Shown here: positions 5,641-64,000 of the stretch, one piece after another
Numbering within the stretch: position 1 is the stretch's first letter
Layout: each line of letters opens with the position of its first letter
Origin: Paraspadella gotoi
Lineage: Eukaryota > Animalia > Chaetognatha
Assembly: GCA_051294375.1 (NCBI GenBank)
Contig: JBJCIZ010000868.1
Location: 9,988-73,987, forward strand
Length of the DNA: 64,000 nt
Reading direction: 5' to 3'
Made by a program: the position numbers and the translations under genes
Notes under the pieces: generated by a model
The model's input: the letters and a program-made list of their open reading frames with translations, nothing else
Told to the model about the DNA's origin: nothing
Database searches by the model: none

Positions 5641-5664
5641 AAAAGGATTATGAAAAAGTTTATT

Positions 5665-30999: not shown

Positions 31000-32890
31000 T
31001 TTATAATCTATTCCACACGGTCACTTTGCCCTAGCTTTGGCAATGACCTTAGATTGACCGGACACAGTAATAGGGCCGAGGCGACCGTAAGGTCAAGTTG
31101 GTCCGGGCGATGATAAAAGTGGATCTACTTCTCTTACATCGTCACAATTCTTCACCTTCTCCTCACTTTTATTAATATTATTTTCGTCTTCTACATTGGT
31201 GAACCCGACTTAAGATAAGTAGCCTTCTGATTTATACTAATACTGATTGATTGATTTATGATCGGATTGATCGAGTAATTGATCGATTATTTTATTTAAT
31301 TAGTGGAAAAGATTCACTCAGTTTCATTGCCTATTTTCGCGATCAGTTTATTTTCGATTTTTGGCGCATTTTTCTTCAAAGAATTTTCAATTTCAAAAAT
31401 TAAACGATTTTTCGAAATTTCTATTTTTCTCAGTCGCGCGCGTCCCACATTTTCGTTTTTTTAAAGTCCAACATTTCGTCTCGTCTACCATCTTCTACCT
31501 GGATTACCTCATCAAAGCTCAAGATTAATTTTTTTTATTAGGCGTTTTCAACGATTTCTCTTGAGCTCAATTTTGAATTTTTTGAAATACGATACTAACC
31601 CTAATCAATTCTTATCCCTTTTTTGAAAAAATTTATAATTAGCTCTAAGTTTTAAAATTTAACTTTTTTTAAAATCTAACCTACGGTATTGTGAAAAACC
31701 GTCTCGCCAATGCGTTTTTCATTTTACTGCGCCGTTTAAGCAAGTTTTATCAGAAATTTTGCTAGCTCTATTGCTATAGAACAATTATGCGAAAATTTTT
31801 CTTTCTGATTTTTCCCTTGATTAAAAATATTGAAAAAATTTTTGACTTTTCTGTTCGGCGCAGATTTAGACATTAATACAGTAAATATTTTACAGCCAGC
31901 ACTTCCTGCAGATCATCATGGAACACATCTTGGATCTCGAAGCTCCCCAAGGACGTGGAACCCGCCGCGCCTCCACCTCGCCGTCAGCAGAGAACCTCAA
32001 ACGACGCTGCACAGAGGACGTCGTCACGCCACCCACCATCACCGTCGAGCAGGACCCCACCACCGACCTCATCACTCCACCATCGCCGACCAAGATGACG
32101 CCTTCAAGACGCCGCGTGGCGATCAAACCAGGGTAAAGAGCGTTTACACACCCCCCCCAATCCAATGTCGGCTCCCTTTGAACCGTACCAGGATCTTCAA
32201 ATGGGCTTATTACCACCTTCAACAACAGGATCCTGGGATTGGAGGCAAAACAGGATAGTTTCAATGCGAGCGTAAAGACATCAATAGAATACCTCACATC
32301 ACAGGTTCAGCGCCTGCTAGCAGCTCAGCAGGCACCACCGGCGATGCCGCACAGGTCCACAGGCGACCTCAACCAAAGATTGTGCCAGTTCGCAGGGCAG
32401 CAACACCCGTTCGACGCCGACGCGGTAGGAGCCTCCTCCACCGTACCCATGGATTATCAGACGTCATGCACCAACCGTTCCAAGACGCCTAAGTTGCCGC
32501 CTTTTGATGTCGGCAACATCCGAGCCTGGCTTGCTGCAGTCGAGGGGAGTTTCCACCTCGCTGCAGTTGTGGATGAGCAGCACAAAAAGATGCACCCGCA
32601 GGAGCATCAGGTGTTGGTCAAGGGTTTTTACACCAATGACCACCCTGTCTCAGGTGGGTATCAGGCCCTGAAAAGGCACCTGTCTGAGCTGTTCGCCGAG
32701 AAGCCCCGGCAGAAGGCACAGAAGCTCCTAGGTCATCACTTCCTCGCAGGACGCACTCCTTCGCAGTTTGTGGCCGCACAGCGCGCTGAGGTCGAATCCC
32801 TGACGATCGACCATCTCCTCAACGCGATCCTGTCTGAGGTCCTCCCAGCCCACGTGGCCGGAAGGGTAGTCAGTGATGGGGATGAGACCA
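31000..32890 (+). mobile_element. gag: Truncated Mag-like Gypsy: LTR end, PBS and frameshifted gag
   Basis: ...CTACA (31195) followed by TGGTGAACCCGAC (tRNA-Trp-like PBS); ORF 32239-32890 KLPPFDVGNIRAWLAAVEGSF..GRTPSQF..LTIDHL is homologous to element A gag. The LTR start is not resolved. Confidence 0.75.
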
Positions 32891-33131
32891 ATTTCTTTTA
32901 TACTTTTAATTGAAACAGTCTACAAAGCCTATTGGCTGATAATTACAAGTTGCAATGTACATTGAATGCGCAGATGACGATTTTGGGGGTAGGGCCCAAA
33001 ATCGCCGTCTCCCATTGGACGATAATTATTTAATTATTTTACACCAATCAGATACGTCTGCCTCTGGTGGCCAGCTCAGAAACTAGTATTTATAACTTTT
33101 CCCTTTACGAGTTTTACGATGACAATAATGG

Positions 33132-33163
<32 letters not shown>

Positions 33164-33629
33164 GGGGGTGTTTACCCTTTACAACCCTCCCCCCCAAGGA
33201 GAGAAAAAAGGTGAGTAACCTTTTTTCGTACATGTATATCCTTTTCACTTAATTTAAACGATCCTTTCTCTCACAAATAATATTTTTGTTGTCCCATTCA
33301 TTTTATTTTCACCTTGACCTCGCTTCTTTCCATTTATTAACTCTTTTTTCGACATGACCACCAGACGCACAGTTCTACAATACGTAAGTATTACTATCAC
33401 GGAATACGTAATTTCTTTAGGTAAAGTTTAAAATAACAAATTCAACATGTCAAAATAATCGAAAATCACAGAAATAAAATTCTAGTTCAGTAACGTAATC
33501 TCAATTAAATTGTTGATAAACAAACATAAATTGACGAGAATTATAGCACGAGATAATTTTGGGAACACAAAAAAAAGCAAGTAAATATCAAGTAAAGATG
33601 TCGCTTACATCTTGCATTTACTATTCACG

Positions 33630-33743
33630 ATGCAATTTACTCTGGGATTTTTCCAAACTTTATTTTGCATTATTTTGATTTTGAACTTTGCAAAAGGGCA
33701 GAATTACGGATACGATTACGAAATCGTTTATTATGGTAATACA
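33630..33743 (+). CDS. Exon 1 (signal peptide) of the antisense gene of family B
   Basis: MQFTLGFFQTLFCIILILNFAKG|QNYGYDYEIVYYGNT; also present at 59335 and 61926 with CACC-ATG context. Confidence 0.6.
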
Positions 33744-37875: not shown

Positions 37876-38206
37876 GCGTTCCTGAGTAAAAAAAAGATTA
37901 ACGCCTTCAGCCCTGCCTTCCTTTCTTCCTTCTTCACTCCGTTCAAAAAGGCAACAAGGGTGGGTAGAGACGGCGACGATGTGATTCAGAATGAAATCAG
38001 AATGAATCAAGACAGACGAAGAGAGAAAATGAAGAGAGAAATTTGTTACATTAAGTAACATTTTTTTCTATTTTTCTTCTTCATGATTAAATTGATATAT
38101 TTTTTTTAATGCCGAAAAAAAGAACGAAAAATATGAAAAGAAAGTCTTCAGGAATACAGGGTGGAAAGGTGGTTAATGTACAAGACAGCACATTGGGCGC
38201 CACCTC

Positions 38207-39189
38207 GGACGATCTCGCCTTCCTTGACGAGCTCGTCCAGACCAGTGAAGGCTCCAACAACAACAACAATGACAACGGAAAAGTCGGGATCCTTNNNNNN
38301 NNNNNNNNNNNNNNNNNNNNNNNNNNNNNNNNNNNNNNNNNNNNNNNNNNNNNNNNNNNNNNNNNNNNNNNNNNNNNNNNNNNNNNNNNNNNNNNNNNNN
38401 NNNNNNNNNNNNNNNNNNNNNNNNNNNNNNNNNNNNNNNNNNNNNNNNNNNNNNNNNNNNNNNNNNNNNNNNNNNNNNNNNNNNNNNNNNNNNNNNNNNN
38501 NNNNNNNNNNNNNNNNNNNNNNNNNNNNNNNNNNNNNNNNNNNNNNNNNNNNNNNNNNNNNNNNNNNNNNNNNNNNNNNNNNNNNNNNNNNNNNNNNNNN
38601 NTTCCCAGTCCGACAGTGAGCAGCGATGTTTCGACCGACCTCCCGATTACCAACGATGTTGCTGTTGTTGTCGCTATCGCGGGGGCATCCGATCACGGGG
38701 ACGACAAAGAGGAAGCGGGAGGACGGTGAGGCAACGCCAAGAGCCCCGACCTATTGCTCCCAAGGGCGCAGCCACTGAGGGTGATTCCACCTACCTCTTA
38801 CTCGTACCCGGTAAAAGAACAAACAAATGGACATACGCAACAAAACGAATTTATTAATAAAAAAAAATTAAACTTTTCTTTCCAGGGAATCTCAATCTTC
38901 ATTGTCGGGGCCACTATGGGAGCCATTCTGTCGTTGGCGACGGTGGCGTTTTGCAGATGCCAACCTTGACGACTTACGATCCCGGATCTTGAGTCGGGTC
39001 TGGACGACGACGACGCCGAAGACGTTACCCATCCAAAGTCGGCGGAAGGCGGCGACGCGGAGATCGCGAACAACGACAGTGAAAATTGACGACAAAAAGA
39101 GAGGGGGCGACGGCGACGATGACGAAGACAACGGCGACGATGATTGTGCCCCCGAGCCTTTACCTCCCGGGTCTGACACATTCCCGTAA
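38207..39189 (+). CDS. 3' exons of the antisense gene of B1 (acidic ectodomain, TM helix, acidic tail), slightly frameshifted and gapped
   Basis: DDLAFLDELVQTSEG..; intron GTAAAAG...TTTTCTTTCCAG at 38811-38885; GISIFIVGATMGAILSLATVAFCRC; ends ..PEPLPPGSDTFP*. Confidence 0.6.
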
Positions 39190-39333: not shown

Positions 39334-42300
39334 TTAACGAATCTTAGCTGAGCCAGAGTCGAGATCAAAATCTGTTAGACTGGTTGGTAACTTTTTCTCT
39401 CGAGTTGAACGACGAAGAGGCGGTTCCTCTTGTTTGTTATTTTCATCATCTCTTTCATCATCATTTCTGTCAGCATTCGAGACTGAGTCATTCTGTGTTT
39501 GGCTCTTTTTTCTTTCAACTACGGCTTTAAGATGATTTGCATGAATGATTCTCTCGTTCCCATTTTGTGAATTTCTAATTACATAGTTTACATCAGAAAG
39601 ACATTTAACTACTTCGAATTCTGTCTCATGATATTTTGAGAGAAAACGACTTAGCTTCATCAGCCGAGATCGCGAATTTTTTGTAAAGTACGCGATCACC
39701 TGATTCAAACTTTGGCATTTGAGCACGGAGATCATAATACTTTTCTGGGTTGCGAGTGATTTACCCATTTTTTTCGGCGACAGCTTGGAAGAGGCGGGAC
39801 TGTCGATCTTGCAGTCCACGGACAACAGCTGGAATGGATTGACGTGGCGTGTCGACCGGAAATGCCAGAGATGCTGGGGTAAACATCTCTGAACCAGTCA
39901 GCAACTTAAATGGGCTGAAGCCAGTGGAATTGTGAGGTGTGCAATTGATCGCATATTGCGCCTTTTTAAGGCGAGAGTCCCATTCAGCACCGTCAAGACG
40001 GTCGCCGTCCGCATCCGGTTCCATCAACATGGATGTCAACAAACCGGAAGTGGACCTGAGATGGCGCTCACCAAGCCATCACCCATTGGATGATAAGCTG
40101 TCGTTTTGGACTTGTTAATATTTAACAAGGAGAAGTTGCGGCATCACTGTGGAAATTACTAGCACGGTCACTGGGAGAGTTTGTGGGCAACCATATGTGG
40201 GATCCAGCGGTCGTACAATGTGGTCAGTACTTCTTCTGTGGTCATGCCTTTGAGGGCCTCCAACACACAGAATCTCGTGAAATAATCTTGCATATATCGA
40301 TTACCCTTTTGGTGACTGGCAACGGACCTTTTATGTCCATTGCCACACGCTCATTGAAGTAGGAGCAGAAATCTTGCTGCAGAGGAGCTTTGCTGTTGTG
40401 GAGCTTTCGTCTTTGGCAGATTTTACAAGATTTCACCCAATCTTCTACTGAAGCTGCAATCCCAAAGAAAAAGTATCTTTTCCTAAGGGATTCAATGGTT
40501 TTGTTGATTCCCAGTGGCCCATGTCATCATGATAGGCCTTTATCACATCTGGGATCAACTTTTCCGGAACTACAGCCAGGAAACTTTCAGTTCCATCAGT
40601 TTCTGTCCAAATTCTGTGACAACGTTGTCCTTTACTTTGAACTGATCAAAACTGGCGTAATAAGATCGAAGGGCGGGGCTTTCTTTTCGGATCCCTTTTC
40701 CTTCAGGACGTTGGCCGGCCTCTAACCAAGCACGGAGCTTGGTCAGATCCCCATCGTCCTCCTGCAACTGTTGCCACATCTTCCACCGATCCTCACTATC
40801 TGGAGCGTCCCCCAAGCTTGGGTCGGCGGCTTCAGAGCCGTTTTCCCGGGATTAGCTCTTGTCGCAACAGGAGCTACTACTACAGTCACAGGAGAGACTC
40901 CTTCGACTACTTCACCCCATCGACCCTCAGGTGATGGGTCAGATCTTGAAAGATCAACTCGGCTGAGAAGATCAGGTCCAAGATTCTGCTTACCAGGCAA
41001 GTGCTTAATTTTGAAGTCACCAAACTCTGCCAACTTCCAAGGATTCGAATTACGAAACCTTGTGGTTGACGGGCTCGTAAGAGATATGTAAGGGCTTTAC
41101 AGTCACTGTGGATGACAAAGTCCTTCTTGGAAAGCAGATAGGCTTTGCAATTTTCCATAGCTAAATGCAAAGTTTTCAGCTCACCCATGAAAGCTGAGTC
41201 TGGAGACTTCTGCTTCTTGCCTTCTCGGACTGGTCCTTTATGGGATTGACTCCCATAGAGAATTGGCCTTAGTTTGCCAGACTCCTCATCTTGTTGCTCA
41301 AGATCCAACTAGATGCTGTCTGAGACCAATCAGTCCCGAGATGAAATGTCTTGTCAAAATCAGGCAGCTTCAAAACCAAATCGGAGCACAGAACTTGCTT
41401 CAATTCATCAAAAGCAGTTTGGCAATCTTCTGTCCACTTGAAGGCAACATCCTTCTGGGACAGCCTATAAAGGGGCCTTGCAATCAACGAAAAGTTTGGG
41501 ACAAACTTTCGATAAAAATTAAAAAGGCCACAAAGGATTGGACTTCCTTTACTGTTGTAGGAGTTGGCCAATTCAACACTGCTTTTGTTTTATTAATTTC
41601 GGGCTTTATCCCTTCCGATTGACCACGTGACCAAGAAGTTGAATCTCATTTTTACACAGGGACATTTACTGGGCTTGGCCTTTAGCCCAGCCACTTCTAA
41701 CCTTGTCAGTACTTCCTCTAGATGGATTAAGTGATCATCAAGTTATGATCAAAGACATTATATCGTCAAGGTAAGCGAGGCAAGTACTGAAGGTCAGACC
41801 ATGCAGAGCCAGTGACATGAGCTCTGTGAAGGTACCTGGACTTCCTTGCAAACCAAAGGGCATCCGATTCCAGCAATATTGCAGGCCATTTGGCACCTGG
41901 AAAGCCGTAAGTGGACGACTTTCTGGTTCCATTGGCACTTCCAAGAATCCCCAATTAAGGTCAATCTTGGAGAACCATTGTGTCCCGAATGGCATCAAAC
42001 ACATCACTCATCCTTGGATGACCCTGGATGAGACAATGGTATTCAGATTCAACTTCCGGTAATCAATTGCAAATCTTGCATTTTGGTGGACGGTTCCATC
42101 CTCGTCCTTTTTGTCCACAAGCACAGGGTAAGTGCGATGAGGACTGGAAATCTGGAGATGATTCCAGCTTCCTTAGATTTTTTACGTGCTCTTCAGCAGC
42201 TTTTTGCTTGGCAAGGGGAAATTGCCTTGGTGGTTCCACCACAGCAGTAACCCCTTCCTTAAGTGTGATCTTATGTTCCACCAACGAGGTCTTACCAATG

Positions 42301-43160
42301 TCCCAAGTACCTCGAGAAATGGCGCGATACTTCCGCCTTAACAGAGCTGAAACCTTTTGTTTTTTCTCTTCATCCAGATGGGCAAGATTAACTAATCCCA
42401 TCTGGATGACCATCTGGAGATTCATCTCCTTCAACATCATGACTCATATCAATCACTTCGTCGGCGGCGGGTCCAGCGCTACGCAGGGTGAAGCAACTCC
42501 CATCGTACTGCGACGATAAAGCTTCATTGGTGTCGCGAACCAGTTCTTGATCAGAACCGGGACGGACTTAGCGGGACGGACAGCATAGCGCGGGATTACC
42601 ACTCCATACCGGCGGCAAGCATAACTACAATCTATCTCCAACAAATCTTCATCAGAAAAATCAGATTCAACATCAACATATTTATCATTTGCTCATGACC
42701 CGGAATGACAATAGTCTCTCTCAGTTTCAGATTACATTCAGATTTAGTAGTGACAGAAAATATTTTAGCCATTTCACCCATCCCCTTTTTTCCTTCATGA
42801 TATCTTAACCATTTGTTATTGCATGACACGGTTTTGTTTTTAATATCTAAAGTCATTGAAAATAACTCCATTCCTTTTAACCCAGTATACAAATATCTCT
42901 TTCTTTAACCACATGAAACAGTACATTTTTTACTAAACTGTTTACTTTACATTTCATTACAATAGACCCTAACATGCCTAGATCTCCTCCCCAACCCCAA
43001 CAATCCTCACTGACCCCCTTTCTAGTGGCTTACTAATTTTTAAAATGTCACGTAAAATATCCACAGAAATAAGATTTAAAGAGCCACTTCCAGTATCTAA
43101 CATAGTTTCTAGGGTCCTCTCACCCAAAAGTGAGGGGATGAAAGGTCCAGGGATGCGCAG
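39334..43160 (-). pseudogene. pol: Frameshifted pol of B1 (PR, RT, RNase H, integrase)
   Basis: MLDTGSG (~43103-43083); FSKIDLNWGF; MPFGLQGSP; YLDD; TDWS; HLPGKQNLGPDLLSR; GHWG..C..CQ; VAMDIKGPLP. Confidence 0.9.
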
Positions 43161-43162
43161 GT

Positions 43163-44693
43163 CTAGTTTGTGGATGACGCTGGCGTCGTCGGCGGCGTCA
43201 CTTCCGGGGCGTCATTTCCGGCGGCGTCAGCGTCTGCATCAGTGGGAACAGGCGAGTCGACGGCGACTGGATCCTCGAGCACCTCGGTGGCGTCCAAATC
43301 CACGGGTGGCGCCGCGGCGAGTGGGCGTGGAGCTCTCTCGGCGCACGCACTTCCGGTTTCGCCGGACGCGCCGATGGCGTCGCTACGAGTTTGGTCGACG
43401 TCGTCCGTCTCGTTCCCGGCGCCAGTGCTTTCATCTTTGCCCGGCGCGGTTTTTCCTTTCCCTTGGAATTGGCGAGGACGTTTTTCCGGGTGTAGCTGCC
43501 AACAATCGGCGCGGCGATGATTGGTGGTGCCACAGTGCCAACAACCAGACGATGAAGGAGCGGCGCCATTCCGATGGGCGCCGGTTGCGCCGGTGGCGTG
43601 TACGACGGCGCGCGGTTCCTCTGAGTAGCCCCTTGTTTCAAACGAGCGAGCTAGCGACACGGCGCGATCGATGGTTTCGGGGAAAAGATCACGTACCTTT
43701 TCCCCCAGCTCTCCGCAGAGATTGTTGACAAAGACGTCCCTCGTCCTTTCCTCGATTTGCTTGCCCGTGGCCGTGAGACCATAGGCGCGAACAGCAAGGG
43801 TCTGGAGACGCGCTGCGAAGTTGAGCAAGGACTCTCCTGGCTTTTTGACGGCAGAGTTGAGGTCATGACGAGCAGCGGTGTCCATTGATGTCTCAACCTT
43901 CCGACTAAGATGATCCCTGATGTCCTCGTAGGTCGCCTCGGGATTTTGGATCATAAAAGTCGCGGCCAGGGACCTTGGAATGCCTTTCAGCAAAGCGAGA
44001 TACTTTGCCGACCAGTACTCCTTACGGAGCCCGCATGCGCTGGCTTCAGCTTCGAATGCAAAGCTGAATGCCCTAATGGAGTCAGTTTCCGAATATGTCG
44101 GGAAGGTGGGTTTAAGCGGAGAATGATGACGGACGACGCGAGCAACAGCGCCTCCACTTCCGGCGGCGGCGGCTGGAGTCGACGTAACCGGCGTGGCCAG
44201 AACCGGCGACGAGGCATCGACGGGCGCGGCGGCGGCATGGGCCGCCACGGGAGCAGCTTCCGGCGCTGAAGAAGTGATGCCGGGGGCGTTAACCACGTCG
44301 ACGCCGCGGGCGTCGATCTCGTCGTATCCCAACAGCGGAGTCACATACTCACTTGGTTGAGTAATGAGTGGAGACGGTGTCGGCGGCGTTACCGGCGTCA
44401 GCGCGTCGGCGGCGTCGCGGGTGTCGGTGGAGATGGCAGCGCTGGTGGCGCAGGAGGCGACGCCGCAGTGTCGCTCAAAGAGGCGGCGGTCGGCGTCCTA
44501 GACAATGCTGCTACGGATGAGCAAGCAGCTGCATCCCCTGCGACATCTGCTGCATCATCGCCATCATCTGATGCAGTGCCGGCCCGAATTGGTTGGCTGA
44601 AGTCGATGCAGATGGCGGCGGCAGCGGCGTCCGCGGCGTCGCCGTCGATTCCTCTCCCGGCAGAGTCGGCTCTCTCGTCGTTTCGTCGTTCAT
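43163..44693 (-). CDS. gag: Gag of B1 (5' part frameshifted)
   Basis: 393-aa ORF with KKPGESLLNFAARL (MHR-like) and CCHC knuckle CWHCGTTNHRRADC. Confidence 0.85.
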
Positions 44694-45331
44694 TTTCTTT
44701 TTTATTTTTCGCTTTTTGTTTTTTACGTTTAAGAAAAATAAAAATTACTATTAAAATTAGTTGCATGAAAAATGCGAGCGCAGAAATAGACGATGACGTT
44801 GGATCAGTTAATTCGCCGAAACACGAGCCCAGAGAACCGAGAGTGACATTCGAGTTCGCCGTGATTACACCAGTCGATGAGAAGCGCAGTGAAAAATGGC
44901 ACTAGACGATCCCAAAGCCGATGCCACCACTTGTAGAGGGGCCGAATATTCTAGCTTGCACTCCTATCTTTTAGTGACTTAGCAGCGTGTTTTAGTGATA
45001 ATCACGGATTTTGGTGACAAGTTTATTTGAACGGAAATCACAAGAGCAGCAATTACAACCTTCTTCTTCTTCTTCTAGATCTATTCTACAATTTCTTTTA
45101 TACTTTTAATTGAAACAGTCTACAAAGCCTATTGGCTGATAATTACAAGTTGCAATGTACATTGAATGCGCAGACGACGATTTTGGGGGTAGGGCCCATA
45201 ATCGCCGTCTCCCATAGGACGATAATTATTTAATTATTTTACACCAATCAGATACGTCTGCCTCTGGTGGCCAGCTCAGAAACTAGTATTTATAACTTTT
45301 CCCTTTACGAGTTTTACGATGACAATAATGG

Positions 45332-45362
<31 letters not shown>

Positions 45363-45855
45363 GGGGTGTTTTCCCTTTACAGAGATCCTGAGTATTATTA
45401 TATAAAGCCTGTCCAAAGTCAGGGGCAAGATAGCTTATTTATTAAATGAATGGATAATTTTTATATTGGTTGTACCAATTTCATAAGAAAGAAAATAAAA
45501 TCGCCAGACGAATTCCTTAGAAATTCCATTGTCCAATAAGAAATTATTTTGAATTCTTTTTTGTAACCAAAGTTTCTCTCTCTATGAAAATGAATGCCAC
45601 TTTGTACAATTAGCCAATTCGATTACATTCGCTTTTCTGATTTCCATAAATCGATTCATCTCATTTTGTTCGCCATTTTTAGCTCGACCACCTCCACTAT
45701 TGTTTGCTCAAACTTGTTTGCCAAAAATCCTGATTTTTTAAAACCGGAAGTGGCGCAACGAAAAAAATGGCTTTTAAGATCCATAATGAGCATCCAGGGA
45801 AATTTTTTTATTGTGGAATTCGTTTTTTTCACTTAATTTGGCACAAGAAACATTT

Positions 45856-46641: not shown

Positions 46642-46869
46642 ATTATTTTTTTTCCAGGCAGATCTTCCTTGACCGCATTCTTGACATTCTTTACCATTAA
46701 CAGCAACAGTTCCTTTTTCACATATGTGACAAAAATCTGATCCAACAATATTACTAATAGATCCTGTTGGGCATTTTCTACACATTATTGATCTCATTTT
46801 ATTACTAAAGTATGATTCTGGGCATTTTTCACAGTAATGCTGTTTGTTCTTGCTTTGATATTCTCCAGG
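46642..46869 (-). CDS. Host exon with Cys-rich ephrin-receptor-like repeats
   Basis: AG|PGEYQSKNKQHYCEKCPESYFSNKMRSIMCRKCPTGSISNIVGSDFCHICEKGTVAVNGKECQECGQGRSAWKKNN|GTAAGT, 228 nt, open. Confidence 0.8.
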
Positions 46870-47018
46870 CTATTTGATTATGACCCATTTATTTTCATGA
46901 TAAACTGATCTCATGCATTGATTAATAATTATAAATTTAAAGAAGCATCCTTTAGTTTTTAAGGCTAAATTAAAAAAAATAGAATAAATTTGTCACCAAT
47001 TTTCTTAAGAAGTTTTAA

Positions 47019-51830: not shown

Positions 51831-52469
51831 GAATAAGGTGAGGGGGCAGTTTCAATTTGTTTAAAACGCAATTTCAATTTGTTTAAATTCAACGTCGTAG
51901 AAAAAGTATAACTGGTAATAACGGAACATGCTGAGCCTAATACTTAGCAGAAGAAATCGCGGATTATTCCTTTCTACAGAGAGTGGAAGAAACTCAGCTA
52001 CGTCGTAGATAGATCGATCAGACCCATTCATTCACTACAAACATTCTTTTAGCTTTCTCTCATCCTTGATTTCGCTCAACTCCAACATTAGAGTTTAATT
52101 GGAGACTTTTATACATCAACGAATAATAATAGAAACAGTAAACAACCACTGACCGACCAATCCTTGGTAGATCGATATCCATTTTATTCAATGGACTAAC
52201 AGAGGAACTAACCATATTTTCATTCTCCCTTCCAGACACTCAACGAGCGGCTGACGCTACTTCATTGGAACGGAAATCTCGGTCGATGCCCTTTTGTTCC
52301 ACGATCCTGGCTTGCTCGTTGCGAACTCAGACGTAGCGCTACAATCAATCGTAATTAAGAGATGAAAAGATGAAAATATGAATAAATGAATAAAATGTAG
52401 TAATGAACAAACAGACGTAGAATTATTGTTATTGATTGAACACTGTTGAAAATAGATTAATAATCATAG

Positions 52470-55400
52470 TTACAACACCTTTTGACTTGAATCGTCCAAA
52501 TAATAGTCAGTTAATCTCGGGGGCAGCTTCCTCGATCGGTTCGAGCGCCTAGCAGCAGCTTCGCTAGCGCTCAAATGATGATCAATAACTTCATCGTCCG
52601 ATTCAGACTCTCTTCCGGTTTTGTCGTCGAACGGTTCCTCTTGTTGACCCATTTCCATGATGATGGCTCTCTCAACAACTGGGCGCAAATGATTTGCATG
52701 AGTCACCCGTTCCTTGCCGGACTTTACGTCTCGAATGATGTAATTCACATCGGACAACTTTTTGGTGATTTCAAAAGTGGAATCAAAATATTTAGGAGCA
52801 AATGCTTTAGCTTCATGGGCGGCTATCGCAAACTTTCGGTAAAGAACTTTGTCACCAATATTAAACTCAGGAATTTTAGAAAGAAGATCATAATACCTTT
52901 TTTGTATCGCCAGCTCATGACCCATATGTTCCATTACGGCGCGGAACAATCTCGATTGCCTGTCTTGCAACCCTCGAACGGTGCCTGAAATAGTTTCTCC
53001 CGCGTTTTCCACCGGATAAACAAGCGTCATCGGAACAAACATTTCACTACCGGTGAGTGTTTTGAAAGGAGAAAAAGAGGTAGAACGATTTGGCGTCGCG
53101 TTAACTGCCAATTGTGCCTTCTTCAGGCGTGTATCCCATTCAGCGCCGTCCAATCGATCACCATCAGCATCCGGTTCCATCAACATGGCAGTCACGAGAC
53201 CTGAAATGGAGCGAATGTTTCTTTCAACCAAACCGTCTCCCATCGGATGGAAAGGAACCGTCTTTGTCTTGTGGATGCCGAGGAGATGATAGAAATCTTT
53301 TGCGGCGGCGCCATGAAACGTCGGTGACGCATCACTATGAAACGCGAATGGAACTCCGAAATATTCAATTTAATGCTCATACAATGCAGTAAGTACTTCT
53401 TCTGCAGTAACTCCTTTTAAACCAGCGAGAATAGTTAATCGACTGAAATAATCAGTGATAATCAATATATAACGGAATTTGTTTATGTTAGTCTCTCTTA
53501 AAGGGCCTTTAATATCAAATGCAACTCTTTCATTGAAATAACTGCAATAATCTTGTTGCAACGGGGCTTTACGGTTTTGCTGCTTTCTCCTTTGACATAT
53601 TCCGCACGAACGAATCCAGTCTTCGACGACGGCGGCCAAACCAAAAATGTAATATCGACGTTGGAGAAATTCAACCGTTTTATTCTGTCCCCAATGACCT
53701 TGGTTGTCGTGCGCTAAGCGCAGCAATTCCAAAACTGCATTCTCAGGTACCACGGCCAAATTCTTACCTTGTCCGTCCTTGCCCGTCCAAACTCGAACTA
53801 TTACATCATTACTTACCTTGAATTGGTCGAAACTTGCGTAGTACGACCTTAGTGCGGGACTTTCCTTACGCGCCTCTTTTCTTTCAGAACGTTGACCGGT
53901 CTCTATCCAAGCCTTGAGCTTGATCAAGTCCCCATCGCTCTCTTGTAACGGCCTCCACTTCCTCCACAGATCCTGTTGGATCAAGGCGTCCCCCAATCCG
54001 GGATCAGTATCGGATGTGGATGCAGCTGCAGCTGCGTCATTGGCCCGTTTTGCAACAGGAGCAACTACTACAACTGGAGCGACACCTTCCGACAATTCTG
54101 ACCAGTCCTGTTCTGGCACAGGATTGTTTCTCGCGAAGTCAATCCGACTCAACAAATCAGGCCCAATATTTTGCTTACCTGGTAAGTGCTTGACTTTGAA
54201 ATCTCCAAACTGGGCTAACTTACCTAGCGTTCTTATGACGAACGCTTGTGGGCGGCGACTAGACAACAGATTTGAGAGAGCAAAGTTGTCTGAATAGAGA
54301 ATAAAGTCGCATTTAGCCAGAAGATAATTATGTCGCCAGCATAGCCGTCGTGAGACTCTTAAATTCTCCTAAATATGAGGAATCAGGCGATTTCCTCGTA
54401 GTGGTCGACACATCAGGTCCTGTATGGACCTTACTTTCATAAAGGATGGGCCTTAACTTACCTGTGGCATCGTCGACTTGAGACAGAATGTAACTGGAGT
54501 TCAGAGCACTCCAGTCAGTCGCAAGGTGGAAAGTTTTATTAAAATCTGGCAACGCCAAGACAAGATCCGAACACATTATATCCTTGAGCTCTTCGAATGC
54601 TTTTTGACAAGCGTCACTCCAATGGAACTTCCGGTCCTTTTTGGAAAGCTCATAGAGGGGTTTTGCGATGCCAGAGAAATTCGGAACAAATCTACGATAA
54701 AAATTGCAAAAAGCAACGAACGACTGAACCTCTTTTACCGTAGTCGGTGTTGGCCAATTTCGGACAGACTGAGTTTTCATGGTATCCGGTTTGATGCCAT
54801 TCTCGTTTATCACGTGACCCAATAATTCAATTTCATTTTTACAGGGACTAACCTTGGAAGCCTTGGCCTTCAGTCCAGCAACTTCGAGCTTAGTTAAGAC
54901 CTCTTCCAAATGCACCACGTGTTCGTCGAAATCGTGATCGAAGACAATGATGTCGTCAAGGTAGGCGAGGCAGGTGGAGAAGGTGAGACCATGCCAGTTC
55001 CATCAGCTCAGTGAAGACGGCCAGCCCGCTTTGCAAACCAAATGGAAGAACGGTCCACATGTACCGACCGGCGTTTGGAACCTCAAAACATGTCAATGGA
55101 GCTGACTCAGGTAACATTGGAATCTCATGGTACCCATAATTTAAATCAATTTTCGAAAACCAACGCATGCCAGAGATATTGTCAAACACATCTCCCATTC
55201 TCGGGAGGCATTGCGTCCTGGGAACCGTAGACAGATTTAATTTCTGGTAATCAATGGCAAAACGTGCATTTTCATGCACGACGCCATGTTCATCACGTTT
55301 CTTGCACAATACCGGCCAGCTTCTGAAGCAAGATTGACTACAACGCGTGATGAGTCCATGTTCTTCTAGCTCACGCGCTTTCTCTTCCGCAGCCTTCTGT

Positions 55401-55525
55401 TTGGCCAGTGGAAACTGACGCGGCGGATCGATTACCGTTGTCACACCTTCTTTCAATTGCAGTTTACATTCACCCAATGACGTGCGGCCAATGTCCCATT
55501 GTCCGCGGCTAATAGTGTTGGACAT
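52470..55525 (-). mobile_element. pol: Gypsy C pol fragment (RT, RNase H, integrase), related to family B
   Basis: FSKIDLNYGYHEI; LPFGLQSG; YLDD; ATDWS; GHWG..CGICQ; VAFDIKGPL; GDGLVER; strong protein similarity to B1 pol. Confidence 0.92.
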
Positions 55526-55575
55526 AAACTCTCGTCGTGGTCCGTCGACCTTATTTACCTTTTGTAAAAGTCTTT

Positions 55576-55748
55576 GATGCGATAAACCTTTCGTTTTCGT
55601 TGTTGTTATGATTTAGAGAAAAAACAAAGTTTTTAATTGTGTTACAACGAATTTAATTAGAGATACGGACATGTTTCGGCTCACATTTCGAGCCTTCATC
55701 AGCGTTTGCCATTGTAACACAATTAAAAACTTTGTTTTTTCTCTAAAT
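55576..55748 (-). mobile_element. Mini Penelope-like fold-back insertion with intact minimal hammerhead
   Basis: Arms 55611-55647 and 55712-55748; minus strand acg-CTGATGA-A-GGCTC(7)GAGCC-GAAACATGTC-cgt; 35-nt tail 55576-55610; TSD TGTAAAAGTCTTT at 55563-55575 and 55748-55760. Confidence 0.85.
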
Positions 55749-55887
55749 GTAAAAGTCTTTAAAAATATAAACAATCGATATTTATTTNNNNNNNNNNNNN
55801 NNNNNNNNNNNNNNNNNNNNNNNNNNNNNNNNNNNNNNNNNNNNNNNNNNNNNNNNNNNNNNNNNNNNNNNNNNNNNNNNNNNNNNN

Positions 55888-58800
55888 AAGCCGCCGACCC
55901 AAGCTTGGGGGACGCTCCAGATAGTGAGGATCGGTGGAAGATGTGGCAACAGTTGCAGGAGGACGATGGGGATCTGACCAAGCTCCGTGCTTGGTTAGAG
56001 GCCGGCCAACGTCCTGAAGGAAAAGGGATCCGAAAAGAAAGCCCCGCCCTTCGATCTTATTACGCCAGTTTTGATCAGTTCAAAGTAAAGGACAACGTTG
56101 TCACAAGAATTTGGACAGAAACTGATGGAACTGAAAGTTTCCTGGCTGTAGTTCCGGAAAAGTTGATCCCAGATGTGATAAAGGCCTATCATGATGACAT
56201 GGGCCACTGGGGAATCAACAAAACCATTGAATCCCTTAGGAAAAGATACTTTTTCTTTGGGATTGCAGCTTCAGTAGAAGATTGGGTGAAATCTTGTAAA
56301 ATCTGCCAGAGACGAAAGCTCCACAACAGCAAAGCTCCTCTGCAGCAAGATTTCTGCTCCTACTTCAATGAGCGTGTGGAATGACATAAAAGGTCCGTTG
56401 CCAGTCACCAAAAAGGGTAATCGATATGTTATAATCTTTCAAGATTATTTCACGAGATTCTGTGTGTTGGAGGCCCTCAAAGGCATGACCACAGAAGAAG
56501 TACTGACCACATTGTACGACCGCTGGATAAACCACATATGGTTGCCCACAAACTCTCACACCAGTGACCGTGCTAGTAATTTCCACAGTGATGCTGCAAA
56601 AGATTTCTATACACTTGTTAAATATTAACAAGTCCAAAACGAAGCTTATCGATCCAATGGGTGATGGCTTGGTCGAGCGCCATCTCAGGTCCACTTCCGG
56701 TTTGTTGACATCCATGTTGATGGAACGGATGCGGACGGCGCCGTCTTGACGTTGCTGAATGGGACTCTCGCCTTAAAAAGGCGCAATATGCGATCAATTG
56801 CACACCTCACAATTCCACTGGCTTCAGCCCATTTAAGTTGCTGACTGGTTCAGAGATGTTTACCCCACATCTCTAGCATTTCCGGTCGACACGCCACGTC
56901 AATCCATTCCAGCTGTTGTCCGTGACTGCAAGATCGACCAGTCCCGCCTCTTCCAAGCTGTCGCCGAAAAAAATGGTAAATCACTCGCACCCAGAAAAGA
57001 TATTATGATCTCCGTGCTCAAATGCCAAAGTTTGAATCAGGTGATCGCGTACTTTACAAAAAATTTCGCGATCTCGCTGATGAAGCAAGTCGTTTTCTCC
57101 AAAATATCATGAGACAGAATTCGAAGTAGTTAAACGTCTTTCTGATTGTAAACTATGTAATTCGAAATTCACAAATGGGAACGAGAGAATCGTTCATGCA
57201 AATCATCTTAAACCCGTAGTTGAAAGAAAAAAGACCCAAACACAGAATGACTCAGTCTCGAATGCTGACAGAAATGATGATGAAAGGGATGATGAAAATA
57301 ACAAACAAGAGGGACTGCCTCTTCGTCGTTCAATCGAGAGAAAAAGTTACCAACCAGTCTAACAGATTTGATCTCGACTCTGGCTCAGCTAGATTCGTTA
57401 AAAAGGCAGCTGCGCCCGCAGCGCCTGCACTGCTGAGACACTCGTTCTCTGGGAAAAAAAGTGTTTCGTCCGAAAAAATATAATTCTAATTCAAAAATGG
57501 TAAAAAGTGAAAATAACTAGAATAAAACAAACAATAATATTTAACAGAATTACGGGAATGTGTCAGACCCGGGAGGTAAAGGCTCGGGGGCACAATCATC
57601 GTCGCCGTTGTCGTCCGTCTATCGTCCGTCATCGTCGCCGTCGCCCCCTCTCCTTTCATCGTCAATTTTCACTCTGTCTTTGTTCGCGATCTCCGCGTCG
57701 CCGCCTTCCGCCGACTTTGNNNNNNNNNNGTCGTCGTCGTCGTCGTCGTCGTCGTCCAGACCCGACTCAAGATCCGGGATCGGAAGTCGTCGAGGTTGGC
57801 ATCGGCAAAACGCCACCGTCGCCAANNNNNNNNNNGCTCCCATAGTGGCCCCGACGATGAAGATCGAGACTCCCTGGAAAGAAAAGTTTAATTTTTTTTT
57901 TTATTAATAAATTCGTTTTTTTTGCTTATGTCCATTTGTTTGTTCTTTTACCGGGNNNNNNNNNNNNNNNNNNNNNNNNNNNNNNNNNNNNNNNNNNNNN
58001 NNNNNNNNNNNNNNNNNNNNNNNNNNNNNNNNNNNNNNNNNNNNNNNNNNNNNNNNNNNNNNNNNNNNNNNNNNNNNNNNCCCCGCGATAGCGACAACAA
58101 CAGCAACATCGTTGGTGATCGGAAGGTCGGTCGAAACATCGCTGCTCACTGTCGGACTGGGAANNNNNNNNNNNNNNNNNNNNNNNNNNNNNNNNNNNNN
58201 NNNNNNNNNNNNNNNNNNNNNNNNNNNNNNNNNNNNNNNNNNNNNNNNNNNNNNNNNNNNNNNNNNNNNNNNNNNNNNNNNNNNNNNNNNNNNNNNNNNN
58301 NNNNNNNNNNNNNNNNNNNNNNNNNNNNNNNNNNNNNNNNNNNNNNNNNNNNNNNNNNNNNNNNNNNNNNNNAAGGATCCCGACTTTTCCGTTGTCATTG
58401 TTGTTGTTGTTGAAGCCTTCACTGGTTTGGACGAGCTCGTCAAGGAAGGCGAGATCGTCCGAGAGTGGAGTTGCGTTGTCGTCGTTGGTTGCAAAAAGAG
58501 AGTCGAGAAGCTAAGAGAAAAAAGTTTTGTCGATTGCGTCAACTAAGGCTGTCGAATAAACAAAAGATTCACCTCTTCAATATCTTCCCCGCCGTCGTTG
58601 TTTCCTTCTGTGGCTCCATCCGGGCCGGTGGATCGTCTAATATTGATAAAATAAATAAATATAAATAAATCTTAACCATACCATTTGTTGTTGTAATGCT
58701 GTATTACCATAATAAACGATTTCGTAATCGTATCCGTAANNNNNNNNNNNNNNNNNNNNNNNNNNNNNNNNNNNNNNNNNNNNNNNNNNNNNNNNNNNNN

Positions 58801-59427
58801 NNNNNNNNNNNNNNNNNNNNNNNNNNNNNNNNNNNNNNNAGAGAGAGAGAGAGAGGGGGTGTTTGCCCTTTACAACCCTCCCCCCCAAGGAGAGAAAAAA
58901 GGTGGGTAACCTTTTTTCATACATGTATATCCTTTTCACTTAATTTAAACGATCCTTTCNNNNNNNNNNNNNNNNNNNNNNNNNNNNNNNNNNNNNNNNN
59001 NNNNNNNNNNNNNNNNNNNNNNNNNNNNNNNNNNNNNNNNNNNNNNNNNNNNNNNNNNNNNNNNNNNNNNNNNNNNNNNNNNNNNNNNNNNNNNNNNNNN
59101 NNNNNNNNNNNNNNNNNNNNNNNNNNNNNNNNNNNNNNNNNNNNNNNNNNNNNNNNNNNNNNNNNNNNNNNNNNNNNNNNNNNNNNNNNNNNNNNNNNNN
59201 NNNNNNNNNNNNNNNNNNNNNNNNNNNNNNNNNNNNNNNNNNNNNNNNNNNNNNNNNNNNNNNNNNNNNNNNNNNNNNNNNNNNNNNNNNNNNNNNNNNN
59301 NNNNNNNGCTTACATCTTGCATTTACTATTCACCATGCAATTTACTCAAGGATTTTTCCAAACATTATTTTGCATTATTTCGATTCTGAACTTTGCAAAA
59401 GGGCAGAATTACGGATACGATTACGAT
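55888..59427 (+). mobile_element. pol: Gypsy B2 partial copy: integrase, antisense gene region, and a locally inverted LTR-end/3' UTR piece (58840-59427)
   Basis: Near-identical reverse complement of 38207-40830; GHWGINKT..CKICQ; 58840-59427 matches 33150-33720. Confidence 0.9.
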
Positions 59428-60900: not shown

Positions 60901-63900
60901 TGTGAGGGGCGCATCGAAAGTTATCTTAGCTTCTATGCGCACTTCCTCTCTTTATTGGACCTTGCTAGGCCAGCCGCCGTGTTTTTAGTGATAATCACCG
61001 ATTTTGGTGACCAAGTTTATTTGTCCACTGCTCATGAAGGAATCACAATAGCGCCAGCCTAATTACAACCTTACGTCTTCGTTGATCTTTTGCTTCTAGA
61101 TCTATTCTACAATATTCTTTTATAACTATTTAAATTATTACGATGGTTGTAGAGAAACAGTCCTCTAAAGCCTATGTGCCTGACCCTGAAATTTACAAGT
61201 TGCAATGTACATTGATCATGCGCAGACCGCGACGATTTTGGGGGTTGGCCCAAAATCGCCGTCTCCCATTGGAGCCGATAATTTATTTTAATTTATTTTA
61301 CACCAATCAGATACGTCCGGCCTCTTGAGTGGCAGCTTAAAGAAATAGTATTTATAAGCTTTTCCCCTTTACGAGTTATTTACGATGACAATAATGGTAG
61401 TGATCCAGAGAGAGACGAGAGGGAGAAGAGAGAGAGAGAGGGGTTTGCCCCTTTTACAACCCTCCCCCCCAAAGGAGAGAAAAAAGGTGAATAACCTTTT
61501 TTTCTACAGTATATCCTTTTCACTTATTTAACCGATCCTTTCTCTCACAAATCTAATATTTTTGTCCCCATTCATTTTATTTTCACCCTTGACCTCGCCT
61601 TTCCATTTATTACTTCTTTTTTTCCGACAATTGACCACCAGACGGTGGAAGTACACAGTTCTACAATTACGTAAGTATTACTATTCAACGGAATACATAA
61701 TTTCTTTAGGTTAAAGTTTAAAATGAACAAATTCAACGGTAAAATAATTCGAAAATCACAGAAATAAATTCTAGATTCAGTACGTAATTCAATTAAACTC
61801 TGATTGGATAAACAAAACATAAATTGGACAGAATCATAGCACGAGATAAATTTATGAACACAAAAAAAAAAAGCAAGTAAATATTCAATAAAAGATGTCC
61901 TTACATCTTGCATTACCTATTCACCATGCAATTTTACTCTAGGATTTTTTCAAACATTTAATTTTGCATATTTCAATTTTTGAACTTTGCAAAAAGGGCA
62001 GAATTACGGATTTACGATACGAAATCGTTTATTATGGTAATACAGCATTACAACACAAATGTATGCGTTAAGATTTATTTATATTATTTATTTTATCAAT
62101 ATATAGACGATATCCACCGGCCCGGATGGAGCCACGAAGGAAACAACGACGGCGCGGGAAGATATTGAAGAGGTGAATCTTTTGTTTATTCGACAGCCTT
62201 AGTTGACGCAATCGGACAAAACTTTTTTCTCTTAGCTTCGACTCTCTTTTTTGCAACCAACGACGACAAACGCAACTCCACTCTCGGAACGATCTCGCCT
62301 TCACTTTGACGAGCTCGTCCGACCAAGTGAAGGGCTCCACAACAACAACAATGACAACCGGAAAAGTCGGGATCCTTAATGACCACGCATATTACGTCGC
62401 CTTCGGGACCGATTCCTCTCATTGATCTCACCCAGACGACGAGGTCCGTCATTATCGACGACAGTTCGGCGCCACGGTGGACATTGGTAGGGAGAGAATG
62501 ACAATTACCCCTCGATTTCCCAGTCCGACAGTAGAGTCAGCGATTGTTCGACCGACCTCCGATCACCAACGATGTTGCTGTTGTTGTCGCTATCGCGGGG
62601 GCGTCCGATCACGGGGACGACAAAGAGGAAGGCGGAGGACGGTCGGGAGCAACGCCAAAGAGCCCCGACCTATTGCCTCCCAAAAAGGCGCGCAGCCACT
62701 GAGGAGTGATTCCACCTACTCTACTCGTATCCCGGTAAAGAACAAACAAATGGGACATAAGCAAAAAAAAAAACGTAATTTATTAATAAAAAAAAAAATT
62801 AAACTTTTTCTTTCCAGGGAGTCTCGATCTTCATGTCGTCGGGAGACTATGAGGCCATTTCTTTCGTTTGGCGACAGTTGCGTTTTTGCCGATGCCAAAC
62901 CTCCGACGAACTTCGATCCCGGATCTTGAGTGGGTCTGGACGACGACGACGACGACGACGACGACGTCACCCAACCAAAGTCGGCGGAAGGGCGGCGACG
63001 CGGAGATCGCGAAACAAGACAGAGTGAAATACGATGAAAGGATAGGGGGCGACGGCGACCGAATGACGACGATGACGACGACAACGGCCGACGATGATTG
63101 TTGCCCCCGAGCCTTTACCTCCCGGTGTCTGGACACATTCCCGTAATTCGTTAAATATTATTGTATTGTTTTATTCCTAGTATTTTCACTTTTACCATTT
63201 TTGAATTAGAATTATATTTTTTCGGACGAAACCACTTTTTCCAGAGACGAGTGTTCAGCAGTTGCAGGCGCATGCGGCGCAGCTGCCCTTTTTAACGAAT
63301 CTTAGCTGAGCCAGAGTCGAATCAAAATCTGTTAGACTGGTTGGTAACTTTTTCTCTCGAGTCTTGAACGTACGAAGAGGCAGTCCCCTCTTGTTTGTTA
63401 TTTTCATCATCCTTTCATCATCATATTCTGTNNNNNNNNNNNNNNNNNNNNNNNNNATTTCTGTCAGCATTCGAGACTGAGTCATTCTGTGTTTGGGTCT
63501 TTTTTCTTTCAACTACGGGTTTAAGATGATTTGCATGAACGATTCTCTCGTTCCCATTTTGTGAATTTAATTACATAGTTTACTACAGAAACGTTTAACT
63601 AGCTTGAATTTGTCTCATGATATTTGAGAAAACGACTTAGCTTCATCAGCCGAGATCGCGAATTTTTTGTAAAGTACGCGATCACCTGATTCAAACTTTG
63701 GCATTTGAGCACGGAGATCATAATATCTTTTCTGGGTTGCGAGTGATTTACCCATTTTTTCGGCGACAGCTTGGAAGAGGCGGGACTGTCGATCTTGCAG
63801 TCCACGGACAACAGCTGGAATGGATTGACGTGGCGTGTCGACCGGAAATGCTAGAGATGCTGGGGTAAACATCTCTGAACCAGTCAGCAACTTAAATGGG

Positions 63901-64000
63901 CTGAAGCCAGTGGAATTGTGAGGTGTGCAATTGATCGCATATTGCGCCTTTTTAAGGCGAGAGTCCCATTCAGCACCGTCAAGACGGTCGCCGTCCGCAT
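60901..64000 (-). mobile_element. Gypsy B3 partial copy: 3' LTR (60901-61458), antisense gene region, integrase C-terminus
   Basis: Indel-rich match to LTR 44932-45381, to 33184-33743 and to 38207-40015. It is the only copy with the antisense gene region contiguous. Confidence 0.88.

What the first reader, a model, noticed from the sequence alone, without database searches (positions are those of the whole stretch)
61926..63146. Intron-containing antisense gene for a type I membrane protein inside a Ty3/Gypsy retrotransposon
Seen: the three family-B copies (33630-33743 + 38207-39189; 57550-58739 + 59335-59427; 61926-63146) share a ~1.9-kb region between the pol stop and the 3' LTR. On the strand opposite gag-pol it has three short AT-rich GT..AG segments (B2: 58681-58637, 45 nt; 58572-58511, 62 nt; 57951-57874, 78 nt; B1: 38811-38885, 75 nt), similar in size to the host introns (46-48 nt) in this window. 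Splicing a consensus (using the extra AT present in B3 exon 2) gives MQFTLGFFQTLFCIILILNFAKG-QNYGYDYEIVYYGNTALQQQM|TISTGPDGATEGNNDGGEDIEE|LLDSLFATNDDNATPLSDDLAFLDELVQTSEG...PSPTVSSDVSTDLP...SYSYP|GISIFIVGATMGAILSLATVAFCRCQPRR..(D/E-rich)..PPGSDTFP*. Inference: signal peptide, acidic low-complexity ectodomain, one TM helix, stop-transfer and acidic tail. It is not a sense-strand env and shows no fusion-protein features. Antisense orientation would let introns survive reverse transcription, and the gene could be driven from the 3' LTR side. It may be an undescribed accessory or captured cell-surface gene. No single copy is intact, so the frame is a reconstruction.
Basis: partly seen in the sequence, partly recalled or inferred. 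Interest (0 to 1): 0.85.

Follow-up and report, generated by a model that had tools for sequence, protein, structure and literature searches.

The report
Retrotransposon carries spliced mucin-like surface gene
A Ty3/Gypsy jumping gene carries, backwards between its polymerase gene and its end repeat, a three-intron gene whose introns are all missing from contigs of one probable RNA run and whose product is predicted to be a mucin-like cell-surface protein, which would let the element alter the surface of its host cell.

Summary
All three family-B copies in the window carry the same antisense cassette between pol and the 3' LTR. Contigs of one public run (RNA by guess) lack all three introns. 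The frame that follows the ATG gives a Ser/Thr/Pro-rich stretch (58% S+T+P), and contig lengths keep it in frame with the membrane helix. Predicted product: about 320 aa, signal peptide, mucin-like stalk, one helix, Cys-Arg-Cys, acidic tail. No homologue was found; no Env or FAST fusogen features. Antisense extra genes at this site are known from plant and fungal elements, and intron-bearing ones recur in this scan, so the layout is a known kind. A mucin-like surface cargo was not found in seven literature searches. Most likely a captured gene kept as an accessory surface glycoprotein; a passenger is not excluded. Strand, level, protein and selection are not shown; host unidentified.

The parts
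60978..61458 (-). 3' LTR of copy B3 (starts TG at 61458; far end diverged or error-rich)
   Evidence: matches the 5' LTR of B1, 44986-45381; edge read
61460..61470 (-). polypurine tract of B3
61926..62036 (+). B3 exon 1 (signal-peptide-like; 8 indel events against B1)
   Evidence: an X1 contig ends at 62036 and a joint leaves from there
62037..62106 (+). B3 intron 1, 70 nt, GT..AG
   Evidence: joint 62036 to 62112 in X1, depth 80.7; an unspliced contig 62018-62135 at depth 12.5 also present
62107..62172 (+). B3 exon 2
62173..62235 (+). B3 intron 2, 63 nt, GT..AG
   Evidence: loose end at 62238 reads exon 2 into exon 3
62236..62734 (+). B3 exon 3 (Ser/Thr/Pro-rich stalk; many one-base frame breaks)
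   Evidence: X1 records 3 and 4
62735..62817 (+). B3 intron 3, 83 nt, GT..AG
   Evidence: joint to 62817 in X1; exact joint on B1
62818..63146 (+). B3 exon 4 (membrane helix, Cys-Arg-Cys, acidic tail, stop)
63293..64000 (-). 3' end of B3 pol (integrase), runs off the window
59335..59427 (+). B2 piece with most of exon 1, set between N gaps in the opposite orientation (probably scaffolding)
58708..58739 (-). B2 end of exon 1
58637..58707 (-). B2 intron 1, 71 nt (reader gave 58681-58637)
58573..58636 (-). B2 exon 2, 64 nt
58511..58572 (-). B2 intron 2, 62 nt
57952..58510 (-). B2 exon 3, with two N gaps; first 45 codons 58% S+T+P
57874..57951 (-). B2 intron 3, 78 nt
57550..57873 (-). B2 exon 4, with two 10-N gaps and an in-frame stop at about 57619-57621
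55888..57402 (+). B2 pol fragment (integrase)
   Evidence: Pfam Integrase_H2C2 E 4.9e-20 on 55617-56384
32889..33183 (-). B1 3' LTR, cut short at 32889
   Evidence: 98% to 45089-45381
33185..33195 (-). B1 polypurine tract
33630..33735 (+). B1 exon 1, 106 nt, open
   Evidence: hydropathy up to 2.85 over 11 residues
33744..38199 (.). 4.4-kb foreign stretch that begins 8 nt into intron 1; B1 lacks the rest of intron 1, exon 2, intron 2 and the start of exon 3
38200..38810 (+). B1 rest of exon 3, with an N gap and an in-frame stop at 38727-38729
38811..38885 (+). B1 intron 3, 75 nt, GT..AG
   Evidence: joint in X1, depth 80.3, side 140
38886..39189 (+). B1 exon 4: helix (19-residue hydropathy 2.17), in-frame stop at 38967-38969, later frame break
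39334..42443 (-). B1 pol, frame-broken, order RT, RNase H, integrase
   Evidence: Pfam RT_RNaseH and Integrase_p58_C; RT part 66% to family A RT
43163..44497 (-). B1 gag
   Evidence: atlas look-alikes 0.94-0.95 with Retrotrans_gag, zf-CCHC, Ty3_capsid; no Pfam hit
44920..44929 (-). B1 primer-binding site (starts TGG, 2 nt after the LTR)
44932..45381 (-). B1 5' LTR, 450 bp, TG..CA

Best explanation
Family B is a Ty3/Gypsy retrotransposon that carries a three-intron antisense gene between pol and the 3' LTR, spliced in contigs of one probable RNA run and predicted to encode a roughly 320-aa mucin-like type I membrane protein, likely captured from a host gene and likely kept as an accessory surface glycoprotein that would shield or re-tune the surface of cells in which the element is active. 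Steps. Shown: the element, the cassette in 3 of 3 copies, removal of all three introns. Inferred from junctions and contig lengths: one frame from the ATG to the helix. Predicted from sequence: cleaved signal peptide (about 23 aa), Tyr-rich acidic tip, Ser/Thr/Pro stalk of roughly 170 aa that would be O-glycosylated and extended, one helix, juxtamembrane cysteines, acidic cytosolic tail. From established knowledge: the genomic RNA runs the other way, so the spliceosome does not see these introns and reverse transcription copies them; the gene needs its own transcript from the 3' side. Inferred, untested: the protein works by bulk and charge, as sialomucins do (blocking adhesion, immune contact or incoming enveloped viruses), not by membrane fusion.
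For: Cassette in 3 of 3 copies with kept splice sites. Three introns absent from X1 contigs at depth 62.6-80.7, next to an unspliced contig at 12.5. A 727-nt contig runs from exon 4 into pol, so the transcript-like sequence is of the element. Each of these two checks passes by chance one time in three. The acidic frame hits a stop at joint 1. S+T+P 58% in the first 45 codons of exon 3, 37% and 31% further on. Two hydrophobic segments at the expected places. B1 against B2: 7 silent and 8 replacement codons in 129, more silent than neutral change usually gives, but too few to test. Plant families keep antisense genes here in most copies and transcribe them from an own promoter (PMC7264820, parts 1-2 read). 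Mucin-like proteins block virion attachment by bulk (PMC8147968, abstract and introduction).
Against: One run, one study, RNA only by guess, contigs only: strand, start, level and translation are not shown, and a flank taken as silent is covered too (30 of 30 bins). No copy in the window is open end to end. I saw lengths and junction letters of the contigs, not their whole sequence, so internal stops are not excluded. In the 5' part of exon 3 the two B1/B2 differences are both replacements in the Ser/Thr frame but one is silent in the acidic frame, and B3's own length over the middle of exon 3 (139 nt) fits the acidic frame, which also looks protein-like. The cassette diverges faster than pol (about 3 against 1.5 substitutions per 100 between B1 and B2). 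No homologue, host or mobile, so capture is not shown. Nothing here ties the protein to the element's life cycle.
Confidence: 0.45

Rival explanations
1. Passenger. The element picked up a host surface-protein gene in reverse by read-through and copied it, introns and promoter included; it is still spliced but does nothing for the element (or one copy serves the host).
For: Host-style short AT-rich introns; faster divergence than pol; stops and breaks in all three copies; family A has an unrelated cargo in the same slot. Transduction by LTR elements is known (PMC7264820).
Against: Present in 3 of 3 copies with all visible splice sites kept; PMC7264820 notes that transduced pieces are usually in sense and in few copies; silent changes slightly favoured; no host copy found, though no genome was on hand.
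Confidence: 0.27
2. Attachment coat for spread between cells. The protein goes into the membrane of budding particles or vesicles and binds target cells through its Tyr-rich tip, while fusion comes from elsewhere.
For: It sits in the env slot and is a type I membrane protein; HIV-1's antisense ASP is reported on the cell surface and viral envelope (PMC10186651, passages); Tor elements express env from an internal promoter (PMC4402516, passages).
Against: No furin-type RxxR site, no N-glycosylation sequon, no ectodomain cysteines after the signal peptide in the five pieces read; not FAST-like; mucin stalks on virions hinder attachment (PMC8147968); antisense RNA would pair with the genomic RNA if made in the same cell.
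Confidence: 0.13
3. The spliced antisense RNA matters as RNA (pairing with the genomic RNA, feeding small-RNA control) and the reading frame is incidental or decayed.
For: Non-coding antisense RNAs are reported for micropia, TART and IAP (PMC7264820); two frames are open over exon 2 and the start of exon 3, so openness is cheap in this GC-rich, repeat-rich DNA.
Against: A signal-peptide-like start, a helix and phase kept over three joints are unlikely in a non-coding RNA; the cassette does not overlap pol (144 nt between the stops in B1).
Confidence: 0.08
4. The reader's acidic ectodomain is the true product, through a splice form or allele not seen in X1.
For: The acidic frame is open in exon 2 and the start of exon 3; B3's length fits it; one silent change favours it.
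Confidence: 0.07

Closest known systems
Antisense additional ORFs between pol and 3' LTR (aORF-3R): maize Grande gene23, rice RIRE2, Silene Retand, bean PvRetro13 (PMC7264820, parts 1-2 of 3 read; PMC11963269, passages)
   Same: Ty3/Gypsy host element, same site, same orientation, kept across copies, separately transcribed, no homologue
   Different: Described products are nuclear or DNA-binding (gene23, TRP28); the Retand paper has no occurrence of 'intron' or 'signal peptide'. Here: three spliced introns and a predicted secretory-pathway protein.
brtn of Boty elements in Botrytis (Zhao et al. 2011; paper not held; seen only as title and citations)
   Same: Antisense third gene in a non-plant Ty3/Gypsy element; that it is spliced is my recall and an unchecked AI note (e1-7566594)
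   Different: Fungal chromovirus; I could not read what its product looks like, so a membrane feature there is not excluded.
Env and env-like ORF3: Oikopleura Tor Env (PMC4402516, passages), bdelloid ORF3s (PMC5408684, passages), insect errantivirus Env
   Same: Membrane glycoprotein gene between pol and 3' LTR; Tor3b/4b env has an internal promoter
   Different: Those are sense-strand, with furin site, cysteines and fusion-peptide features; none seen here.
sORF2/FAST-like fusogens of MDG1-group elements (bioRxiv 10.1101/2025.03.14.642691, passages)
   Same: Single-pass membrane protein in an env-less LTR element; three basic residues within 15 after the helix in B2
   Different: Those are 63-107 aa, myristoylated, with a 10-50-aa ectodomain; this is about 320 aa with a signal peptide and an ectodomain near 195 aa.
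Sialomucins / SHREK proteins: PSGL-1, CD43, CD34, CD164, TMEM123 (PMC8147968, abstract and introduction)
   Same: Signal peptide, Ser/Thr-rich stalk, one helix. The Tyr-plus-acid tip and juxtamembrane Cys recall PSGL-1 (recalled, from no call).
   Different: Host genes of vertebrates; no sequence likeness found; glycosylation not shown here. It may work like them but is not shown to be one.
Retroviral antisense genes HBZ, APH-2 and ASP (PMC10186651, passages)
   Same: Antisense transcript from the 3' side; HBZ and APH spliced; ASP at membranes
   Different: They overlap or flank env in true retroviruses; HBZ is nuclear; ASP has two helices and no mucin stalk.

Membership tests
Ty3/Gypsy LTR retrotransposon | LTRs with TG..CA, primer-binding site, polypurine tract | tested here: met
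   B1 LTR 44932-45381, PBS and PPT
Ty3/Gypsy LTR retrotransposon | gag, then pol in the order RT, RNase H, integrase | tested here: met
   the B1 RT piece had no Pfam hit of its own but aligns to family A's RT
aORF-3R antisense extra gene | between pol and 3' LTR, antisense to gag-pol | tested here: met
aORF-3R antisense extra gene | present in most copies of the family | tested here: inconclusive
   3 of 3 copies in the window; no genome on hand
aORF-3R antisense extra gene | transcribed on its own from the 3' side | tested here: inconclusive
   splicing on the antisense strand seen in contigs; start and promoter not shown
aORF-3R antisense extra gene | conserved like gag-pol | tested here: inconclusive
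   7 silent, 8 replacement codons in 129; about twice the divergence of pol
Env / class I fusion protein | sense-strand gene | tested here: not met
   antisense in all three copies
Env / class I fusion protein | furin site, fusion peptide, Cys-bonded ectodomain | tested here: not met
   0 RxxR, 0 sequons, 0 Cys in exons 2-3 pieces; no Pfam or PDB hit; middle of exon 3 seen only in error-rich B3
sORF2/FAST fusogen | 60-210 aa, ectodomain 10-50 aa, MGxxxS/T start | tested here: not met
   about 218 codons before the helix exon, start is not MG (criteria)
sORF2/FAST fusogen | single helix followed by 3 or more K/R in 15 residues | tested here: met
   B2 exon 4
Sialomucin / SHREK-like protein | signal peptide and one membrane helix, type I | tested here: inconclusive
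   hydropathy only; no SignalP or TMHMM on hand
Sialomucin / SHREK-like protein | Ser/Thr/Pro-rich ectodomain | tested here: met
   58%, 37%, 31% S+T+P in three stretches of exon 3; no tandem repeat unit looked for
Sialomucin / SHREK-like protein | dense O-glycosylation, surface display, blocking of virion attachment | not testable with these tools
   needs protein work
Sialomucin / SHREK-like protein | sequence kinship with a named member | tested here: not met
   no hit; only the C-terminal half and short pieces could be searched

The most novel reading that the evidence does not exclude
An env-less LTR retrotransposon uses a captured, still-spliced mucin-like membrane protein as its own surface coat, to shield or deliver its particles or to guard its host cell against competing enveloped elements: a third kind of membrane accessory beside Env and FAST, held in a swappable antisense slot that the sister family A fills with another cargo.
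Probability: 0.15. Interest if true: 0.85.

Novelty: new variant of a known kind. Interest (0 to 1): 0.6.

Why it matters
Antisense extra genes of LTR retrotransposons have no known function, and those described are nuclear. A spliced one for a cell-surface, mucin-like protein would show that these elements can carry intact multi-intron genes and act on the outside of the cell without an env. The exact joints given here make the gene directly testable by RT-PCR, long reads and proteomics. Such genes are missed by ORF-based TE annotation, which the review PMC7264820 itself asks to correct by looking for antisense and spliced transcripts.

Tried and rejected
No whole genome held, so copy number, a host paralogue and genome-wide selection were not tested. 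Run search: 1 run listed, none on record as RNA; this blank is no evidence. No cover in X1 at 61524-61731: not used, so the transcript start is open. Depths (spliced contigs 62-81, gag-pol contigs 5-7) are one figure per contig and were not used to rank expression. Homologues of the cargo: phmmer over 1.84 billion representatives with the B1 stretch 38604-39086 gave 3 hits, all tandem-repeat proteins with 7-8 weak stretches, the best partly over intron-encoded residues; rejected as chance. Word search with B2 exon 4: 0 of 61 candidates. Pfam: 0 families except a sub-threshold DUF2273 on the signal segment. PDB 0, PHROGs 0. No language-model look-alike search of the cargo was obtained, so distant kin remain open. 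Relatives of pol: 1 of 408 and 2 of 3794 candidates, unnamed, contigs about 5 kb; viral contigs 0 of 14 and 0 of 85 stretches; metagenome contigs 2 of 191, one 1.6 kb (not examined), one a distant chromodomain element of apparent fungal type with no such cargo among ORFs of 90 aa or more. Exon-versus-intron indel test: no difference (exons 4.5-7.1, introns 1.6-8.2 events per 100 nt against B3), set aside because B3's errors swamp it. The exon-3 codon comparison was out of register (26-28 replacements) and was redone. The pol control (3 silent, 7 replacement) is unreliable because the B1 frame is broken. Of 12 exon rows listed I classed 8 (4 silent, 4 not) and dropped 4 that lie beyond B1's frame break; 226 further rows were not shown. 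B2's summed exon length was first taken as frame evidence and dropped once the N runs proved to be gaps. No A(A/T)TAAA within about 150 nt after the stop in any copy. No fold was run: the product is mostly low-complexity. Literature searches gave no antisense, spliced, mucin-like or signal-peptide cargo in an LTR element; subscription papers (Zhao 2011, Steinbauerova 2011) and all supplements were not seen and may bear on this.
Full report
The element. Self-comparison of the window shows three copies of one family. B1 is the fullest, on the minus strand: 5' LTR 44932-45381 (TG..CA), a primer-binding site two bases further, gag 43163-44497, a frame-broken pol 39334-42443, a polypurine tract at 33185-33195 and a 3' LTR cut at 32889, 98% identical to the 5' one. 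Pfam finds RNase H and integrase domains in Gypsy order, and the gag has Ty3-type look-alikes. B2 (55888-59427) and B3 (60978-64000) are partial. The host is an unidentified eukaryote; an animal is likely from the kinds of elements present, but no call showed it, and no genome was held.

State of the sequence. The N runs behave like assembly gaps: run X1 has 11 letters where the window has 44. B3, the finding's own copy, has 55 indel events in the five exon stretches compared, and 29 in its LTR and 32 in the upstream spacer, mostly single extra bases. That is the pattern of an error-rich long read, so 'no copy is intact' is partly an artefact. B1 is truly or apparently interrupted by 4.4 kb that starts 8 nt into intron 1, and has two in-frame stops; B2 has gaps and one stop in exon 4.

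The introns. A simple intron rule finds 2 in B2 and 3 in B3 on the gene strand, none on the other, against shuffle means of 0.08 and 0.23 (5 of 200 shuffles reach each count). One public run holds the region (RNA by guess, contigs only); 416 of 1240 contigs laid on 38100-52000 are 99% or more alike, so it is likely the same species. Its contigs lack all three introns: a joint leaving at 62036 and entering exon 2 (depth 80.7), a contig end that reads exon 2 straight into exon 3 (62.6), and an exact 75-nt GT..AG skip at 38811-38885 (80.3). An unspliced contig over intron 1 has depth 12.5. Because the run also covers a flank taken as silent, it may hold DNA, and an intronless DNA copy cannot be excluded; but all visible window copies keep the introns, and sense-strand reverse transcription would not remove them, so RNA is the simpler reading (inference).

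The frame. The frame that follows the ATG reads exon 2 and the start of exon 3 as Thr/Ser/Pro-rich (58% in 45 codons). Each check has a one-in-three chance rate, and I saw lengths, not whole contig sequence. Against this frame: both B1/B2 differences at the start of exon 3 are replacements in it but one is silent in the acidic frame, and B3's length over the middle fits the acidic frame. I put the Ser/Thr frame at about 0.8.

The product. About 218 codons before exon 4 and 101-108 in it. Exon 1 has a hydrophobic core (2.85 over 11 residues) followed by small residues and a Tyr/acid-rich stretch; exon 4 opens with a 19-residue segment of hydropathy 2.17, then Cys-Arg-Cys and a tail with 20-29% Asp+Glu. 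There is no RxxR site, no N-glycosylation sequon and no cysteine in the exon 2-3 pieces. This is the plan of a sialomucin, not of Env or FAST. No homologue was found; only the C-terminal half and short pieces could be searched, and low complexity weakens these searches.

How it likely works. The gene needs its own antisense transcript; the ATG lies 447 nt (B1) or 468 nt (B3) inside the 3' LTR edge and the stop 144 nt from the pol stop, so the two transcripts converge. Host-style introns suggest capture of a host gene in reverse, but no donor was seen. Retention in 3 of 3 copies with splice sites, and 7 silent against 8 replacement changes in 129 codons, lean weakly to selection. I commit to an accessory surface glycoprotein acting by bulk and charge (0.45), ahead of a passenger (0.27), an attachment coat for spread (0.13), a regulatory RNA (0.08) and the acidic product (0.07).

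Context. Antisense extra ORFs at this site are reviewed for plant elements and Boty, with nuclear products and unknown roles (PMC7264820; PMC11963269). Env-like ORF3s are sense-strand. FAST-like sORF2s are small and myristoylated. HIV-1 ASP is an antisense membrane protein. SHREK mucins block virions by steric hindrance. Seven searches found no spliced antisense mucin-like or signal-peptide cargo. Unchecked notes of this scan list 19 findings in at least 10 genomes with the words LTR retrotransposon, antisense, ORF and intron, 8 shown, with protease, transposase or zinc-cluster cargo; none held all the words for a membrane or mucin cargo, and none matched this sequence. These are leads, not support; they lower the novelty of the layout. 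In this window the related family A has an unrelated GC-rich antisense stretch in the same slot, sharing only an Asp run by tblastx.

Verdict. Observation partly confirmed, with a corrected first intron and ectodomain. A new variant of a known kind: known slot, apparently new cargo class, with splice evidence from one run. Interest 0.6.

Noticed in passing
window 50900-51830 (+): Family-A Gypsy (pol 52470-55612, minus; 62-65% identical to family B over integrase pieces) has its own antisense, GC-rich (0.61) coding-like stretch after pol: frames 51044-51511 and 51243-51830, Ser/Pro/Arg-rich with an acidic end, behind a 38-nt AT-rich GT..AG segment (50961-50998) and a short hydrophobic stretch. 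No Pfam or PHROGs hit; atlas best 0.81, weak. No joint there among the 15 shown (4 hidden).
   Followed up: partly
window 61671-61709 and about 33384-33420 (+): A strong donor-like site and a nearby acceptor upstream of the ATG could be a 37-39-nt 5' UTR intron of the antisense gene, in both B1 and B3; no contig covers it.
   Followed up: partly
window 1-8300: Gene-dense stretch with A-rich ATG contexts, short introns (about 1433-1507, 2153-2214) and GAC-type repeats like those of the cassette; looks like a Polinton or other DNA-virus-like element (impression).
   Followed up: no
window 22819-29727 (-): A third LTR element with 215-bp LTRs (98.6%), gag, RT, RNase H and integrase, and an internal 1.6-kb duplication (24185-25805 / 25808-27390) that may be an assembly artefact; no extra ORF between pol and LTR.
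   Followed up: no
window 20876-21271 (-): Host exon with three Cys-rich ephrin-receptor-like (GCC2/GCC3) repeats, E 4.4e-22.
   Followed up: no
window 45404-45484 and 47563-48289: Very high-copy small repeats (summed depth up to 25,340 and 6,213 in X1); the second family also opens the 4.4-kb stretch inside B1 (33744-34869).
   Followed up: no
window 32182-32913 (+): Gag-like frame of another element abuts and cuts B1's 3' LTR at 32889; no Pfam hit.
   Followed up: no
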